A stretch of DNA of 64,000 nucleotides from a candidate division WOR-3 bacterium (GTDB taxonomy: Bacteria; Hydrothermota; 32-111). The stretch spans positions 352,001 through 416,000 of the forward strand of contig JBDRZU010000001.1 of assembly GCA_039804105.1 (NCBI GenBank), written 5' to 3'. This document shows positions 38,901 through 50,900 of this stretch, piece after piece; positions within the stretch are counted from its first letter, which is position 1, and the number at the start of each line of letters is the position of its first letter. Made by a program: the position numbers.

Positions 38901-41900
38901 TACCTCCAAATGGGAGATGACATTCAGCACCTATTGTTGGGCCATTGACATAAGTTATTCCAGTATCAATATCCTCTATCGCTTTGAATGCAAGGTTTAC
39001 ATTTTTAGTATAGATTGAACTTGAGAGTCCATATTCGACACCATTGAGAACATCTATCGCTTCCTCAAAACTTTTTACTTTGATCACAGAAAGAACTGGG
39101 CCAAAAATCTCTTCCTGTTCAATCCTCATCCCAGGTTTAACATCAATAAAGATTGTTGGTTTAACAAACCATCCATTTTTACATACTCCTTCCTGATATC
39201 TATAACCACCTGTAACGAGTTTCGCACCTTCCTCCTTTCCAATTTTAACATATTCTAAAATTTTGTTCATCGATGACTCGTTGATCACTGGACCAACATC
39301 TATATTTTCATCCCATGGATAACCCAATTTCAACTCTTCAGTTCTTTTAACAAGTTTCTCAACAAAAAGATCATGAATCTTTTCATGCAATATCAATCTC
39401 GAGGTTGCAGTACATCTCTGTCCTGCTGTTCCAAAAGCACCAAACAAAACACCTTCAATAGCAAGATCAAGATCAGCATCATCCATAACTATCTGTGCAT
39501 TTTTCCCACCAAGTTCTAAAGAAACCCTTTTCAAAGTTCTTCCACAAACTGATGCGATATGTCTTCCGATTTCAGAAGAACCTGTAAAAGAAACAACTCC
39601 AATATCCTTATGTTCAAGAATCGCATTTCCAACAGCACCACCTGGTCCATGAACGAGGTTCACAACACCTTTGGGAAAACCAGCTTCCTCCATTATCTCA
39701 ACAAGTTTTGTCGCGAGTGCAGGTGTATCAGATGCTGGCTTTAACACAACAGTGTTTCCCGAAAGTAAAGCAGGAAACATCTTCCATGTTGGTATCGCTA
39801 TCGGGAAATTCCATGGAGTTATGAGTCCCGCAACTCCTATCGGTCTTAAAAAGGTTATAGCAACTTTGTTTGGAAGTTCAGATGGAGAAGTCCTGCCAAA
39901 AAATCTTCTTCCTTCTCCAAATGCATAGTATGCTGTATCTATCCCTTCCTGCACATCACCTCTTGCCTCTTTCATTATTTTTCCCATTTCCTCAGTCATC
40001 AGTTTCGCTATTTCCTCTTTCCTTTTAACCATTATATCACCAACTTTACCAAGTAGTTCACCTCTTTTTGCTGCTGGAACTTTTCTCCAACTTTTGAACG
40101 CCTCTTTAGCGGCCCTAACAGCAAGATCAACATCCTCTTTATTTGATTTAGGAAATATACCTACAACTTTACTCCAATCAGCCGGCATCCTGCTTTCAAA
40201 AGTTTCCTTTGTAACAGAATCAACCCATTCTCCATTAATAAAATTTTTAAATTTTTGAGTCATAAAACCTCCACTCTATTTTAAGATTTTTTCAAGTTCT
40301 TTATCCTCTGGATATCTCTCTTCAAAAAGTGTAACAACTTCGGATCGATATCCTATTATCCTTCCAAAATCATCAACTTTCAAAATCAACTTATCAAAAC
40401 TTGATAATTCACCATATCCTTTCATTATTATAGTATGATTTTTAGGTGTTTCGATAGCATTCCTTAATCCAATCCCATCGAATCCACCAAAAATAATATC
40501 TATACCTTCCACATTTTCCGCAATAATTTTGTCATGTTCAAGACCAACAGATGTTAAACCAATTATAATTGAACATCTATTTTTTTTCAATATATCGACC
40601 ATCTCTTTCGCTACATCGATCTCCCTGCTTATGACATAATTCCCAGCAACATCTTCATCCATATTCAATAATGCATATTCAGATAATAAGCCAAATACAC
40701 CGATCCTGACTCCTTCCTTTTCAATAATCACATAACGTTCAGGTTGTAAATCTGAATTCAGAATCTTTAAGTTTGAAGAGATAAGTTTTGGATTAAAAAG
40801 TTTTACAGAGTTTAAGAAGAACTCAGGACCTGCGATTATCTCATCAATGCCGAGATTCACGATATCATAACCCATATGGTTAAAATACAAAGCAGGTTTG
40901 ATAAAATCAACAGAATCGTTATCAACACTTTTAAAGACAAAATTGCCAGAATCAAAGAGAAGAAATATTGCACCATTTTTACAAGCTTTTTCTCTTTCAT
41001 ATTTTATAGCTGTTGATAGTGAATATATACCACCAAGAACTGGAGGAAAATCAGGGTTGATAAAAGTTGCCTCCCTTCTATCAAGAACATTTCTTATATC
41101 GTTTGTATGTATTAATATGATATCTTTTGAAAAAATTGATAAAAAGAACAGAAAACCAAATAAAATGGAAAAACTCTTTTTCATTTTCACCTCTTAAAAA
41201 ACTGTTATTTTATCAGCTGCTTTTTCAAGTATTTTCGAAAAATAATTTTCATATATATGAGCCAGAGTATCCGATTTGATGAGTATAGATGCTTCATTGT
41301 TTTTATCAAGTGCCTGGTAACTCCAGTTTGTTGAACCAACTATAACAAAAACTGAATCTATGATCAGCGCTTTTGCATGCAGTGTCGCTTCAGGATCATC
41401 ATAGTAAACTTTTATACCCCCACTTCTTAAAAAATCGCCAAGATCTTTGTTTCTAATGCTTTGATTCGGATTGAAACCTGACTGATCAAGAATGATCTTT
41501 ACATCAACACCCCTTTTAACAGCATCAAACAAAGATTCATAAATCTTTTGGTTCACACCTTCCTTTCTTTCAGGATAATAACCACCTTCAAGCATCATGA
41601 TATGAATCGTTTTTTTCGAATTTTTTATAAGTTTTAATAAATTTTTTGAATATTCTCTGTTGTTCATTGTCATTGCTCCCTCCGCAGGGAGAAAATTTAA
41701 ACTATCTGAAAACAAAAAGTAAAAAGAAAATATCGATAAGAAAAATATTAACCTTTTCATAAATGTACTCCTAAGGTGTTATTGTTAAACTGTCAAATTT
41801 GAACTTATAAAGTTTTTCAAAAAAATCTTCATATTTTAAAGATATATCCCTTGATTTCACAGCAACAGCACATTCATTGTTTTTTGCAAGAGCATAAAAA

Positions 41901-47900: not shown

Positions 47901-50900
47901 GTAAAATAATAATCTTTGATATAAATCTTTATAGTATCCTTAAAAGAAATATCGTCGATGTTAATCGTTGTTGTATTTGAAGTCGTATCGAAAGTTATTT
48001 TTGTTGAATCAAAAGAAATTAAAGATGAATCACAAACAACTTTTATTGAATCTGTAAGAACCTTTTTGTTTAAAACAACTTTAAGATATTTTATCGTTCC
48101 ATAAACAGTATCAACATTAGGGATAAGATCCACTCTTATATCGTTATAAGAAAAATCGTTAAAAAATTTCGGATTAACACTTAAAACTCCACTTCCATCA
48201 AGTGTTTTTAAAACATCTTCGTTTCCATAAGGTCTCAATTCAAATTTACCGTTGTATTCATCCATACATCCTCTAACAAAAATGAAAGTATCGTTTAGAG
48301 ATTCAACTGTTACAGGATAGTTAAGATCCTCGTATACAGTTAAAGGCCCTGTGCCATCATCGATTTGCCATTCTCTCGCTGTTACTATCTGACTCACATA
48401 ACAGCCCTCTAACTGTACAAACATCCCCTCCCATTTTTCTTTTCCTGCCTCACCTGTTTTGAGTTTCACCGGGCCTGGGATCGTCCGTCCTTTTGCAAGT
48501 ACAGTTAGAACTGTTGGATTAGAAATCTCTGTTTTTCCATTGTATTCAACAACCTGTCCTGTAACACTTATTGAATCTCCAACTTCAACAGGAGCTGGAG
48601 GATTATACACAAGAATTCCATGCCACGGTAAAGTATCATCCTGTATATACACATTAACTCCAAAAACTCTTGTAACTATTCCTGAAACCGTAACAATTTG
48701 TCCAGCATAGGGAGAAGCACCAGAAATGTTTTCAGTATATTGAACATCATAGATCGTTAACGAAAAAGAGACGATAACAAGTAAAACGGTTGAAAAAAAT
48801 AAAAATAGATATTTCATCTTACCTCCTGAGAATCCCTTTCCTTTTAGATGAAGGGAGAATATTTAATTTTTCTCTATATTTCGCGACAGTTCTTCGTGCG
48901 ATTTTTATCGAATGTTTTTCCTCAAGAATTTTTACAAGTTCTATATCAGAATAAGGATTGTTTGGATCCTCATTCTCTATCTCTTCTTTTATGATATTCA
49001 TAATTTTTTTGTTTGAAACCTCAAAACCTGTTGTGTTTTTAACACCCTTAGAAAAGAAAAATTTTAAAGGAAATATACCAGCAGGTGTTTCCATATATTT
49101 ATTTTCTATTGCTCTTGAAACTGTTGCTTCATGAATTCCTATATAACTTGAGATATCGTTCAAAGTAAGCGGTTTTAAAGAGGAAATTCCGTTGAAGAAA
49201 AAATCTTTTTGAATCTGAACGATCCTTTCTGATATTTTTAAAAGAGTATTATTTCTTCTGTATATACCTTCAAGTAAAAACAACGCTGCATTGAACTTGT
49301 TTTTCAAAAATTTTTTTTCTTCCTGTGAAAGATTTTCGTTATTTTTGTACATTTCAAAATAACTTTTACTCAGATGAACTTCAGGGAAAGATTGTAGATT
49401 TAAAGAGACATATAGTTCTTCACCTCTCTGTTCCACTATAATATCCGGAATAATGTAATCTGAACTTTTTCCCCAACTTCCATTCGCCGGTTTGGGATTC
49501 AAAGTTCTGATCGATTCAAGAACTTTTTCAAGTTTGTTTCTTGTGATTTTTAATTTGTTTTCAATAATATATAATTTGTTTGTTAAAAACTCTTCATAAA
49601 AATCTTTTATAATCCTATATTCCAATGAATCCATTTTGTTTTGATTTTCAAGTTGAGTTAGAAGAACTTCCTGAACACTTCTACTACCGATACCTACTGG
49701 ATCAAAAAATTTATATTTTGAATGGACATATTCAACTTTTTCAATTGGAATGTTTAAATTTTCTGCGATCTGGGACAAAGATACTTCCAAAAGCCCATCA
49801 TCCGAAAGTGAAAAGGTTATCTCTTCAGCAATTTTTATTTCATCTGGATCATCAAAAAAAATATGTGATTGTGTCAAAAGGTAATCCTGCAAACTTTCAG
49901 GTTCTTCAACATTTGTTAATGGATCAAACTCTTCTCTTTCTCTATCATATCTTTCAGAAGGTAAAGATGCTCTTTTCCAATCATCATGAAAAAAATATTC
50001 ATAGTCAATTTCATCCTTCAAAGGTAGTTCAGGTTCAACCTCCTCATATGTAACATCTTCTTCTTCAAGAACATCATCGGCCAAAAATGGATTCTGTTCA
50101 ATCTCGTTCGTTATAACCTGTTGCAACTCGAGAAGAGGAAGTTGTAAAATTTTTACAAGAGTCAACAACTGTGGTGTTAATTTTATTTCCTGTCTTAAAG
50201 AGGTCTCAAGTTTCTGTTTCATAATCTGAATTTTTCTCCAAGATAGAGTTCTCTTGCCTTCTCATCGTTAATTAACTGGTGAGTATCCCCGGATAAGAGA
50301 ATCTTTCCTTCATATATTATATGTGCTACATCTACGATTTCAAGTGTTTCTCTTACATTATGATCGGTTATTAAAATTCCGATACCTTCTTTTGCAAGAT
50401 CAGTTACCATATTTTGTATTTCTTCTTTAACCTTTGGATCTATCCCTGTAAAAGGTTCATCAAGAAGTAAGAATTTTGGATTTGAAGTCAAAGCCCTTGC
50501 GATTTCGACCCTCCTTCTTTCTCCACCCGAAAGTTTGTAAGCAGGGAGATTTTTCAAATGTGATACTTTAAATTTTTCAAGGAGTTCATCAGCCCTTTTC
50601 TCATTTTTTTTTCTATCTGGAAACAACATTTCAAGTATAGCCAAAAGATTTTCTTTTACAGTTAGTTGCCTAAAAATTGAACTCTCCTGTGGAAGATATC
50701 CTATTCCCAGCCTTGCTCTTTTATACATTGGAAGATCTGTTATATCCTTTTCATCAAGAAAAATTTTCCCTGATGATACAGGAACAACTCCAACCATCAT
50801 ATAAAAAGTTGTTGTTTTACCAGCTCCATTTGGACCGAGAAGTCCAATAATTTTACCATTTTCAACTTCAAGAGACAGTTGATCCACAACTTTCCTTTTT

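What a model noticed while it worked through the whole genome (the two positions that open the first line are those of the whole stretch)
40276..48817. Conserved outer-membrane DNA capture and digestion locus: ComEA-like HhH beta-barrel, OB-fold T9SS cargo, PLD nucleases, [...]
Seven co-oriented, mostly unannotated genes form a syntenic locus: an OB-fold (ExeM/YhcR-like) T9SS cargo, a PorV-like barrel, an 806-aa large beta-barrel with two N-terminal helix-hairpin-helix DNA-binding domains, a second barrel, two PLD-family nucleases and a 5'-nucleotidase. Together they suggest a dedicated route to bind, import and degrade extracellular DNA as food.
Evidence so far: Domain hits in calls 41 and 48 (HHH_3 twice, ExeM/NucH, OB-fold, PorV, UshA/SoxB-like). 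The g373 model has HhH helices followed by more than 20 amphipathic strands and matches usher- and TonB-type barrels. g373 is in 26 of 45 WOR-3 genomes across 6 families. The order cargo-barrel-barrel-PLD-nucleotidase is kept in G019 and G053 (other families). The barrel lies beside the nucleotidase in G038 and G052, with the second barrel found in G052 only. The locus is split in G023. No paper found.
(Added by a program. Inside this text positions count along the whole contig: contig position 352,001 is position 1 of the stretch shown here. "Call 12" and the like, gene names such as g00115 and contig names such as C1 are that model's own, and its searches are not shown. The text may have been shortened before it was handed on; [...] marks where a part breaks off. 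The agent that wrote the report below was given it as the finding of a first reader that could run no searches.)

Follow-up and report, generated by a model that had tools for sequence, protein, structure and literature searches.

The report
Surface nucleic-acid scavenging cassette, dead nucleotidase
These seven genes are a real, widely conserved set in uncultured bacteria that probably catches DNA or RNA at the cell surface and breaks it down for food around a large, never-studied outer-membrane pore, but in this lineage the last enzyme is broken and the pore's supposed DNA-gripping domains look altered, so DNA import itself is unproven.

Summary
All seven genes are real. Co-orientation is no evidence: 61 of 65 window ORFs share the strand. 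The gene order does hold across families and phyla, with different flanks.

The 806-aa protein models (pLDDT 90) as a 24-strand barrel with two periplasm-side HhH domains and no solved relative. It is the long paralogue of a Bacteroidota-wide family paired with a PorV-like barrel. The nucleic-acid theme rests on neighbours: a four-OB T9SS cargo (DUF5689; best fold p204 HIN-dsDNA, like DdbD), barrel B plus 5'-nucleotidase behind the barrel in 45 of 51 outside loci, and Nuc-like PLDs or EEP nucleases.

Corrections:
- The nucleotidase here lacks its metal ligands and C-terminal domain, as in all 12 related PLD-bearing loci.
- PLDs are lineage-restricted (0 of 80 outside loci).
- The HhH domains lack ComEA's GhG motif (1 of 43, 0 of 48); HhH1 is acidic.
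- Barrel B is BamG/FadL-like.

Best reading (0.5): a Ddb-like nucleic-acid scavenging locus with a non-TonB gate. Main rival: the barrel is a docking platform. The scan noted this module and cassette before on other DNA; the PLD/dead-nucleotidase swap was not found in those notes.

The parts
46844..48817 (-). 657-aa T9SS cargo: signal peptide, two tandem OB-fold pairs (DUF5689/HIN-like) around an Ig-like domain, C-terminal T9SS sorting domain; no catalytic domain. Probable surface nucleic-acid-binding protein.
   Evidence: Pfam OB 1e-7, FlgD_ig, DUF5689 (29.1 bits, just over the 28.6 cut-off); model pLDDT 87; top Foldseek hit p204 HINab-dsDNA, E 1e-8 but TM only 0.17; single OB domains match aspartyl-tRNA synthetase, RPA and HIN at Z 10.5-12.3, C-terminus matches the PorU/PorZ CTD at Z 10-11
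45953..46831 (-). 292-aa barrel A, PorV/FadL-superfamily small outer-membrane barrel; near-constant partner gene of the HhH barrel
   Evidence: NF033709 6.7e-9, below cut-off; profile best PDB match PorV 6h3i_F, 8.7e-7; directly upstream in 49 of 60 WOR-3 loci and 70 of 72 Bacteroidota loci
43523..45943 (-). 806-aa outer-membrane protein: signal peptide, two HhH domains, acidic linker helices, 24-strand barrel (long, two-HhH paralogue of an FCB-wide family)
   Evidence: HHH_3 twice; model pLDDT 90; homologous over 624 columns to the Bacteroidota ~700-aa family, probability 100, E 3.5e-42; only the HhH part matches solved sequences
45698..45883 (-). HhH domain 1 (residues 21-82): acidic, GhG hairpin motif lost
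   Evidence: net charge -8 here, family mean -1.1; GhG in 1 of 43 orthologues against 22 of 23 stand-alone ComEA
45392..45580 (-). HhH domain 2 (residues 122-184): basic but non-canonical; conserved arginines and tyrosines; the better candidate for nucleic-acid contact
   Evidence: net charge +5 here, family mean +3.6; GhG in 0 of 48
42354..43529 (-). 391-aa barrel B (likely start at Met6), FadL/BamG-like; travels with the nucleotidase when the cassette splits
   Evidence: profile best PDB matches are the BamG chains, E 3e-10 to 8e-8; Atlas neighbours Toluene_X/FadL; 83 of 86 B-positive genomes carry the long barrel; B followed by the nucleotidase in 10 of 18 further B loci
41771..42379 (-). 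PLD-family single-HKD protein 1 (likely start at Met12), signal peptide, intact HKD and GSxN motifs; tandem duplicate of protein 2
   Evidence: PLDc_2 9e-23, NucT/DrmC models below cut-off; 44% identical to PLD 2
41194..41760 (-). PLD-family single-HKD protein 2, signal peptide; Nuc/NucT/Zucchini-like; nuclease or lipase not resolved
   Evidence: best solved matches Nuc endonuclease 1byr 1e-8, mitochondrial PLD 3e-8, a phospholipase 2e-7, NucT 1e-5
40276..41190 (-). 304-aa catalytically dead, truncated orthologue of the cassette's UshA-type 5'-nucleotidase
   Evidence: alignment with full-length orthologues shows the His/Asp/Asn metal ligands replaced and the C-terminal domain missing; 0 of 4 motifs in all 12 related PLD-bearing loci, 4 of 4 in 13 of 16 full-length ones; family profile matches 5'-nucleotidases, E 6e-80

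Best explanation
The cassette is a nucleic-acid scavenging locus, organised like a Bacteroidota polymer-utilisation locus but built round a barrel that is not a TonB-dependent transporter. Steps: (1) The four-OB cargo is exported by the T9SS and held at the surface by barrel A, where it binds extracellular DNA or RNA (fold shown by model; export, anchoring and binding inferred). (2) Surface nucleases shorten the polymer: an EEP-domain cargo in some families, perhaps the LTD-PLD-PLD cargo encoded elsewhere in this genome (domains shown; activity inferred). (3) Fragments cross the 24-strand barrel, met on the periplasmic side by HhH2 (inferred; the weakest step). (4) Periplasmic enzymes finish the job. 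Ancestrally an intact 5'-nucleotidase tied to barrel B made nucleosides. In the window's lineage Nuc-like PLDs were inserted and the nucleotidase decayed into a retained, non-catalytic subunit, so the cassette here would yield short oligonucleotides or nucleotides (motif loss shown; scaffold role inferred). (5) An ABC transporter and salvage enzymes take up the products; these are linked in some lineages, not in this window.
For: Outside loci: barrel B follows the long barrel in 63 of 68 loci with room and the nucleotidase in 45 of 51; 42 of 44 full-length nucleotidases keep GNH[ED]. B is found in 83 of 111 genomes with the long barrel and 3 of 89 without. The cargo's top fold match is a four-OB dsDNA-binding protein, and orthologues pass the DUF5689 cut-off (53.4 and 43.4 bits). 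DUF5689 is the family of DdbD, from a locus required for DNA utilisation (PMC12478041, Results read), and of RA0C_RS04920, required for transformation (PMC8459023, passages). Different lineages place different nucleic-acid genes beside the cassette: PLDs, EEP nuclease with CTD, ABC permeases with binding protein and pyrimidine-nucleoside phosphorylase, RecJ-like DHH proteins, a ComM-like ATPase. The polar face of the strands averages 34 K/R against 19 D/E.
Against: The HhH domains lack the GhG motif in nearly all members and HhH1 is neutral to acidic. The homologous barrel pair is in 203 of 251 Bacteroidota genomes, and in 80 loci no neighbour matched the window's PLD, nucleotidase or barrel B, so the barrel family's core job may have nothing to do with DNA. 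The basic strand faces may only balance the acidic loops and linker (about -25 in sum). The nucleotidase is dead here, and no 5'-nucleotidase C-domain or EEP domain was found in the 85%-complete genome. Many WOR-3 families keep only A plus the barrel, or the barrel alone. PLD substrate is unresolved. OB folds also bind proteins and sugars (established knowledge), and whole-chain TM-scores are low. Barrels A and B resemble docking subunits (PorV, BamG) more than channels.
Confidence: 0.5

Rival explanations
1. The large barrel with its PorV-like partner is a plugged docking or assembly platform of the FCB envelope, like SprA-PorV or BamA-BamG. Its HhH domains are protein-contact modules. The cassette still scavenges nucleic acids, but DNA is cut outside and the products enter by barrel B or other porins, not through the 24-strand barrel.
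For: A is PorV-like and B is BamG-like, and both known relatives dock on large barrels and hold surface proteins (PMC12578637 passages; PMC9143113 abstract). GhG loss and acidic HhH in all subfamilies. Near-core, single-copy distribution in Bacteroidota without nucleic-acid neighbours. The most conserved parts are loops 7 and 11 and the acidic linker; fold alignments to plugged transporters begin at residue ~94, hinting that the linker fills the lumen (not checked on coordinates). B stays with the nucleotidase when the cassette splits.
Against: Five Bacteroidota-phylum genomes keep the barrel with no partner A beside it and no SprA found, so it can exist without a T9SS. SprA is in 196 of 200 WOR-3 genomes while the long barrel is in 111, so the two are not coupled. 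HhH2 is basic with conserved arginines. In the own genome a second small barrel carries a canonical HhH domain two genes upstream of the short paralogue.
Confidence: 0.27
2. The cassette is a pilus-independent DNA-uptake entry for natural transformation: the cargo captures dsDNA, the barrel passes it, and the HhH domains or free ComEA ratchet it to ComEC.
For: The DUF5689 relative RA0C_RS04920 is essential for transformation in Riemerella. The own genome has ComEA and ComEC. A ComM-like gene follows barrel B in family f16; a free comEA lies directly before the short paralogue in G054.
Against: The conserved partner is a nucleotidase, and nucleases accompany it, which destroys rather than preserves DNA. 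The own genome also has a secretin, the usual entry route. The Riemerella HhH hit RA0C_RS02645 is described with HhH at residues 236-301, three HhH domains and a periplasmic location, which fits a short ComEA-type protein, not this barrel (sequence not compared). The Riemerella outer-membrane component is a TonB-type DdbC homologue.
Confidence: 0.13
3. The grouping is not about nucleic acids: it is an envelope or lipid-turnover operon (PLD as phospholipase, UshA-like enzyme acting on nucleotide-sugars or CDP-alcohols, FadL-like barrels moving lipids), or partly an accident of gene order in a compact genome.
For: PLD matches include lipases and cardiolipin-synthase models; both small barrels are FadL-superfamily; the cassette sits in a long run behind lptB and rpoN in the own family.
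Against: The order survives across families and phyla with different flanks; the cargo is a tandem-OB DUF5689 protein in most lineages scanned; EEP, RecJ-like and nucleoside-phosphorylase neighbours recur.
Confidence: 0.1

Closest known systems
Ddb DNA-utilisation locus ddbABCDEF of Bacteroides thetaiotaomicron (PMC12478041)
   Same: One locus joins an outer-membrane barrel, a DUF5689 tandem-OB surface protein with a HIN-like fold, and secreted nucleases; subtypes swap their nucleases.
   Different: DdbC is annotated as a TonB-dependent transporter and its surface enzymes are lipoproteins. Here the barrel has 24 strands, HhH domains and no Pfam plug domain; the OB protein is a T9SS cargo with four OB folds; two FadL-superfamily barrels and a 5'-nucleotidase are added.
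Riemerella anatipestifer transformation genes RA0C_RS04915/04920/02645 (PMC8459023)
   Same: DUF5689 surface protein, an outer-membrane barrel and an HhH protein occur together in a DNA-uptake system.
   Different: The barrel is a DdbC homologue and the HhH protein is a separate, apparently soluble protein; homology of RA0C_RS02645 to this barrel was not shown.
ComEA (PF12836; PDB 8dss, 8dfk)
   Same: Same two-hairpin HhH fold, matched by sequence, on the periplasmic side.
   Different: Fused to a barrel; GhG motifs lost; HhH1 acidic; the genome keeps a separate canonical ComEA.
SprA-PorV (T9SS translocon, 6h3i) and BamA-BamG (Bacteroidota BAM, PMC12578637)
   Same: A large barrel encoded or working with FadL-superfamily small barrels; A resembles PorV and B resembles BamG.
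   Different: The large barrel is unrelated in sequence to SprA or BamA; the genome has its own SprA elsewhere; physical pairing is not shown.
Usher translocation domains FimD/PapC
   Same: Best fold match, Z 15.5-16.1; ushers also have 24 strands (recalled).
   Different: rmsd about 5, 10-11% identity, no usher Pfam domains, no pilin or chaperone genes nearby: a shared barrel size only.
LptN of the expanded Bacteroidota LPS translocon (bioRxiv 10.64898/2026.10.03.756453)
   Same: An oval barrel unlike other known ones, with about 100 residues before strand 1 filling the cavity.
   Different: 22 strands; no mention of HhH, hairpin or ComEA in the text. Sequence not available, so identity is unlikely but not excluded.

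Membership tests
Ddb DNA-utilisation locus | DdbC-type TonB-dependent transporter as anchor gene | tested here: not met
   The barrel hits only HHH_3 in Pfam and nothing in NCBIfam; 24 strands with N-terminal HhH domains; TonB-dependent folds rank below ushers.
Ddb DNA-utilisation locus | DUF5689 (DdbD-like) surface protein | tested here: met
   29.1 bits against a cut-off of 28.6 in the window; orthologues 53.4 and 43.4 bits; HIN fold matches including 4JBM, Z 10.5.
Ddb DNA-utilisation locus | Secreted nucleases in the locus | tested here: inconclusive
   Two signal-peptide PLDs with intact HKD, nearest to Nuc but also to lipases; EEP cargo in other families; no activity test.
ComEA-type DNA receptor | HhH_3 fold | tested here: met
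   Pfam HHH_3 twice, 35 bits over cut-off 27; profile matches ComEA structures at 7e-11.
ComEA-type DNA receptor | GhG hairpin motifs and basic surface | tested here: not met
   GhG in 1 of 43, 0 of 48, 2 of 33, 1 of 34 and 0 of 65 barrel-fused domains against 22 of 23 ComEA; net charge -1.1, +3.6, -2.8, +1.2, -2.5 against +5.4 (the ComEA set was picked by top Pfam score, which favours canonical ones).
UshA-type 5'-nucleotidase (window gene 40276-41190) | Dimetal ligands DxH, GD, GNH, H, HxH | tested here: not met
   All replaced in the window protein and in the 12 related PLD-linked copies.
UshA-type 5'-nucleotidase (window gene 40276-41190) | C-terminal substrate-binding domain (PF02872) | tested here: not met
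   Protein ends at 304 aa; no Pfam hit; domain not found in the own genome; present in full-length orthologues.
Nuc/NucT-type PLD endonuclease | Single HKD motif, GSxN motif, signal peptide | tested here: met
   Seen in both sequences and aligned with 1byr.
Nuc/NucT-type PLD endonuclease | Nuclease rather than lipase activity | not testable with these tools
   NucT models score far below their cut-offs.
T9SS cargo | Signal peptide, C-terminal Ig-like sorting domain, T9SS in the genome | tested here: met
   FlgD_ig over cut-off, Por_Secre_tail below; fold match to PorU/PorZ CTD; SprA over cut-off in the own genome.
PorV / BamG | Orthology to PorV (barrel A) or BamG (barrel B) | tested here: inconclusive
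   Best PDB matches, but A scores 35.8 against a cut-off of 90 and B matches at 3e-10; same superfamily, orthology not shown.
Chaperone-usher usher | Usher domains and adjacent chaperone/pilin genes | tested here: not met
   No usher Pfam hit; none of the neighbours scanned is a chaperone or pilin.

The most novel reading that the evidence does not exclude
The 24-strand HhH barrel is a previously unknown class of outer-membrane nucleic-acid channel that needs neither TonB nor a pilus: a pore with its own periplasmic ratchet, fed by a T9SS-displayed four-OB lid on a PorV-like barrel and coupled to a BamG-like barrel that docks periplasmic nucleases through a nucleotidase that has become a pure scaffold in this lineage. 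Its short paralogue would then give most Bacteroidota an unrecognised nucleic-acid entry route.
Probability: 0.22. Interest if true: 0.87.

Novelty: new variant of a known kind. Interest (0 to 1): 0.6.

Why it matters
How Bacteroidota and their uncultured relatives move DNA across the outer membrane is only partly known; a 2024 P. gingivalis paper calls the step unclear (PMC11532111, passage). This cassette gives a large, structurally unstudied barrel family, present in 203 of 251 Bacteroidota genomes searched, its first consistent functional context, and names parts that can be expressed and assayed one by one. If it scavenges nucleic acids, WOR-3 and related small-genome anaerobes recycle extracellular DNA or RNA by a route distinct from the TonB-based Ddb system. 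The swap of an active nucleotidase for PLDs plus a retained dead copy is a clean natural experiment on which parts are catalytic and which are structural.

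Tried and rejected
Complex prediction of barrel (residues 86-806) with barrel A: no verdict, score 0.12 against a mark of 0.32; not evidence either way. RNA evidence: no RNA holder listed; no reads were laid. Promoter and terminator scan: 73 promoter-like sites against 60.6 +/- 7.5 by chance; nothing delimits the cassette. Co-orientation and within-family synteny rejected as evidence. Coupling to the T9SS by presence: SprA is in 196 of 200 genomes, so uninformative; in five genomes that keep the barrel without A, SprA was not found, but nothing rang in that call's controls. 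First genome-contig scan with one Bacteroidota protein found nothing; repeated with an alignment. Foldseek on the barrel gave only generic barrels, TM at most 0.34; no solved homologue of the barrel part by sequence. PG1035, a locus tag I recalled as a possible HhH protein, is a type B T9SS cargo and unrelated. The two Lpt preprints and the T9SS shuttle paper do not mention HhH, hairpin or ComEA. Literature searches for the barrel found no description; DUF5689 appears in two works only. The library lacks most subscription papers, and no supplements were read; proteomic or essential-gene tables there could name a Bacteroidota orthologue. Lumen charge as proof of a DNA channel rejected as inconclusive. 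The PLD/dead-nucleotidase link is not independent across families: on the barrel tree four of the five families fall in one clade (support 0.94, with two families that lost both genes) and the fifth is unresolved, so it may be one event.

Full report
What is there. Seven ORFs lie on the minus strand between rpoN (48819-50222) and an aldehyde dehydrogenase (38767-40263): 657, 292, 806, 391, 202, 188 and 304 aa. All begin with signal-peptide-like stretches (read from the sequences). Their shared direction says nothing: 61 of 65 window ORFs are on that strand, and neighbouring genes overlap or lie close together. In the own family the whole 20 kb, housekeeping genes included, is syntenic, so only other families test the grouping.

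The large barrel. With 72 aligned relatives the 806-aa protein folds at pLDDT 90 and pTM 0.84. By my count of the DSSP list it has 24 long strands from residue 193 on, with all long loops on one side and the N-terminal domains on the other, which places the two HhH domains on the periplasmic side. Nearest folds are usher pores (FimD Z 16.1, rmsd 4.8, 368 aligned); Foldseek finds only generic barrels, and by sequence only the HhH part matches solved structures. It is in 111 of 200 WOR-3-phylum genomes, mostly single copy and by whole families (G019 removed as the short paralogue). Relatives are labelled Cloacimonadota, Fidelibacterota, Elusimicrobiota and others. It is homologous over 624 columns to a ~700-aa, one-HhH family found in 203 of 251 Bacteroidota genomes (only four candidates were scored per genome, so misses are uncertain). 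Many WOR-3 genomes also carry such a short paralogue; the own genome has a divergent candidate at C1:979821-981434 (probability 64, E 6.5e-5).

The constant partner. Barrel A, closest to PorV, lies directly upstream in 49 of 60 WOR-3 loci, one gene further up in one, four loci end at a contig edge and six lack it. In Bacteroidota its homologue (E 9e-20) is directly upstream in 70 of 72 top-scoring loci with an upstream ORF and 10 of 20 more diverse loci. There the other neighbours did not match the window's PLD, nucleotidase or barrel B. So the two-barrel pair is ancient and does not need the rest.

The cassette of the long paralogue. In 80 metagenomic loci picked with a non-WOR-3 profile (61 clusters at 90% identity, 9 at 50%; taxa not given), barrel B follows in 63 of 68 loci with room, a nucleotidase in 45 of 51, A precedes in 20 of 48 and a cargo in 14 of 36; none of the 80 has a PLD. 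Within WOR-3, B follows in 36 of 60 loci and an OB-type cargo precedes A in 23. B is found in 83 of 111 genomes with the long barrel and 3 of 89 without (kin are not independent). Where the cassette is split, B keeps the nucleotidase: 10 of 18 further B loci, plus one with PLD and a short copy; seven weaker B matches stand alone. B is FadL-like, closest to BamG.

The nucleic-acid theme. The cargo models as four OB folds, an Ig domain and a T9SS sorting domain. Its top Foldseek hit is the four-OB p204 HIN protein bound to dsDNA (E 1e-8, low whole-chain TM). It is the only DUF5689 match in the genome. DUF5689 is the family of DdbD, whose model resembles the p202 HIN domain and whose locus is required for DNA utilisation in B. 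thetaiotaomicron (PMC12478041; abstract and Results read), and of RA0C_RS04920, required for transformation in Riemerella (PMC8459023; abstract and passages). Neither the cargo nor 15 WOR-3 cargo proteins scanned has a nuclease domain (two of the 15 are unrelated cargo). Beside the nucleotidase other families place an EEP-domain T9SS cargo (three scanned, all over cut-off), a PHP-like cargo, RecJ-like DHH proteins, ABC permeases with a binding protein and a pyrimidine-nucleoside phosphorylase, or, after barrel B, a ComM-like ATPase. The genome has SprA, so export is possible, and an LTD-PLD-PLD cargo elsewhere that could act as surface nuclease.

The window's nucleotidase lacks the metal ligands and the whole C-terminal domain. 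The same holds in all 12 related loci that have a PLD after barrel B (families f1, f3, f4, f6, f11; one copy is cut by a contig end), whereas the 16 loci of f5 and f31 have no PLD and a full-length enzyme, 13 of them with all four motifs tested. Two f34 loci have a different PLD further on and no nucleotidase. The dead copies remain 28-56% identical to the window's and keep the family's proline-rich N-terminal loop, so they are retained, probably as a binding subunit (inference). On the barrel tree this may be one event. No 5'-nucleotidase C-domain and no EEP domain were found in the genome, 85% complete. The PLDs are a tandem pair, 44% identical, with intact HKD motifs, nearest to Nuc but nearly as near to lipases.

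The HhH domains are not ComEA. The GhG motif is in 22 of 23 stand-alone ComEA proteins but 1 of 43 first and 0 of 48 second domains of WOR-3 barrels, 2 of 33 and 1 of 34 outside, and 0 of 65 in Bacteroidota; domains of unusual length were dropped before the count. HhH1 has net charge -8 here; HhH2 has +5 and conserved arginines and tyrosines. That GhG contacts the phosphate backbone is established knowledge; some DNA-binding HhH domains tolerate serine there (recalled), so HhH2 remains a candidate. The polar strand faces are basic (34 K/R to 19 D/E) but the loops and linker are acidic by a similar amount. The genome has its own ComEA, ComEC and secretin.

How it most likely works. I favour (0.5) a scavenging locus: T9SS-displayed OB protein on barrel A captures nucleic acid, nucleases shorten it, fragments pass the 24-strand barrel, and periplasmic enzymes tied to barrel B finish them; here PLDs have replaced nucleotidase activity. 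Shown: folds, motifs, gene order, co-inheritance. Inferred: binding, transport, complexes, substrate. The main rival (0.27) keeps the scavenging but makes the barrel a plugged docking platform, as PorV and BamG dock on large barrels and hold surface proteins (PMC12578637, passages; PMC9143113, abstract). Competence (0.13) and a lipid or chance grouping (0.1) fit less well.

Relation to known systems and novelty. It works like a Ddb locus but fails membership, since the anchor is not a TonB-dependent transporter. It is not ComEA, not an usher, and probably not LptN (22 strands; bioRxiv 10.64898/2026.10.03.756453, abstract and two of three parts of one section read; PMC13692018, abstract and one section). 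Seven searches found no description of the barrel; subscription papers and supplements were not seen. Earlier notes of this scan describe the two-barrel pair with degenerate HhH several times and the cassette twice; I took the Ddb paper from one of them, and had measured the motif loss before seeing the others. A word search found no note on the dead nucleotidase and PLD swap. Verdict: real and conserved, a new variant of a known kind of system round an uncharacterised barrel family; interest 0.6.

Noticed in passing
G000:C1:979821-982937 (L353), outside the window: Second copy of the two-barrel module: a 340-aa small barrel-like protein with a canonical C-terminal HhH domain (2e-10), a Nudix-like gene (recalled label), then a divergent 537-aa short-type barrel. 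G005 has the order A, Nudix-like, short barrel too.
   Followed up: partly
G024, G030, G045, G003, G005, G057, G036, G026, G006, G020, G013 (coordinates in notebook entry 3): Stand-alone comEA lies within about 2-4 kb of sprA on the same contig in 11 WOR-3 genomes.
   Followed up: no
200 WOR-3-phylum genomes: SprA, the T9SS translocon, matches in 196 of 200 (177 over cut-off): a T9SS is near-universal in this non-Bacteroidota phylum.
   Followed up: no
L231, L235, L236, L238, L239 (G443, G299, G367, G407, G271): These Bacteroidota-phylum genomes keep the HhH barrel with no partner barrel beside it and no SprA found; a secretin was found in only 2 of 5.
   Followed up: partly
G000:C2:188227-190761 (L351) and C2:36114-36713 (L352): An 845-aa T9SS cargo with a lamin-tail domain and two PLD domains, and a 200-aa PLD lipoprotein-like paralogue of the cassette's PLDs.
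   Followed up: partly
L332-L339, L346, L349, L036, L176: After the nucleotidase, an EEP or PHP-like T9SS cargo is usually followed by its own ~265-aa small barrel, a repeated cargo-plus-barrel unit.
   Followed up: partly
L332-L338, L349 (families f14, f24): Full-length nucleotidases there replace the first histidine ligand by glutamate; three f5 copies also show partial motif decay.
   Followed up: no
L175 (G118): A 664-aa nucleotidase with an inserted stretch that reads like an OmpA-type peptidoglycan-binding domain (recalled motif).
   Followed up: no
P0055, P0139: HhH barrels with long N-terminal extensions that read like TPR repeats (1251 aa and 668 aa).
   Followed up: no
window 38244-38759: 171-aa probable lipoprotein with no family hit, conserved at this place in the own family; a hairpin lies just before it at 38746-38768.
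   Followed up: no
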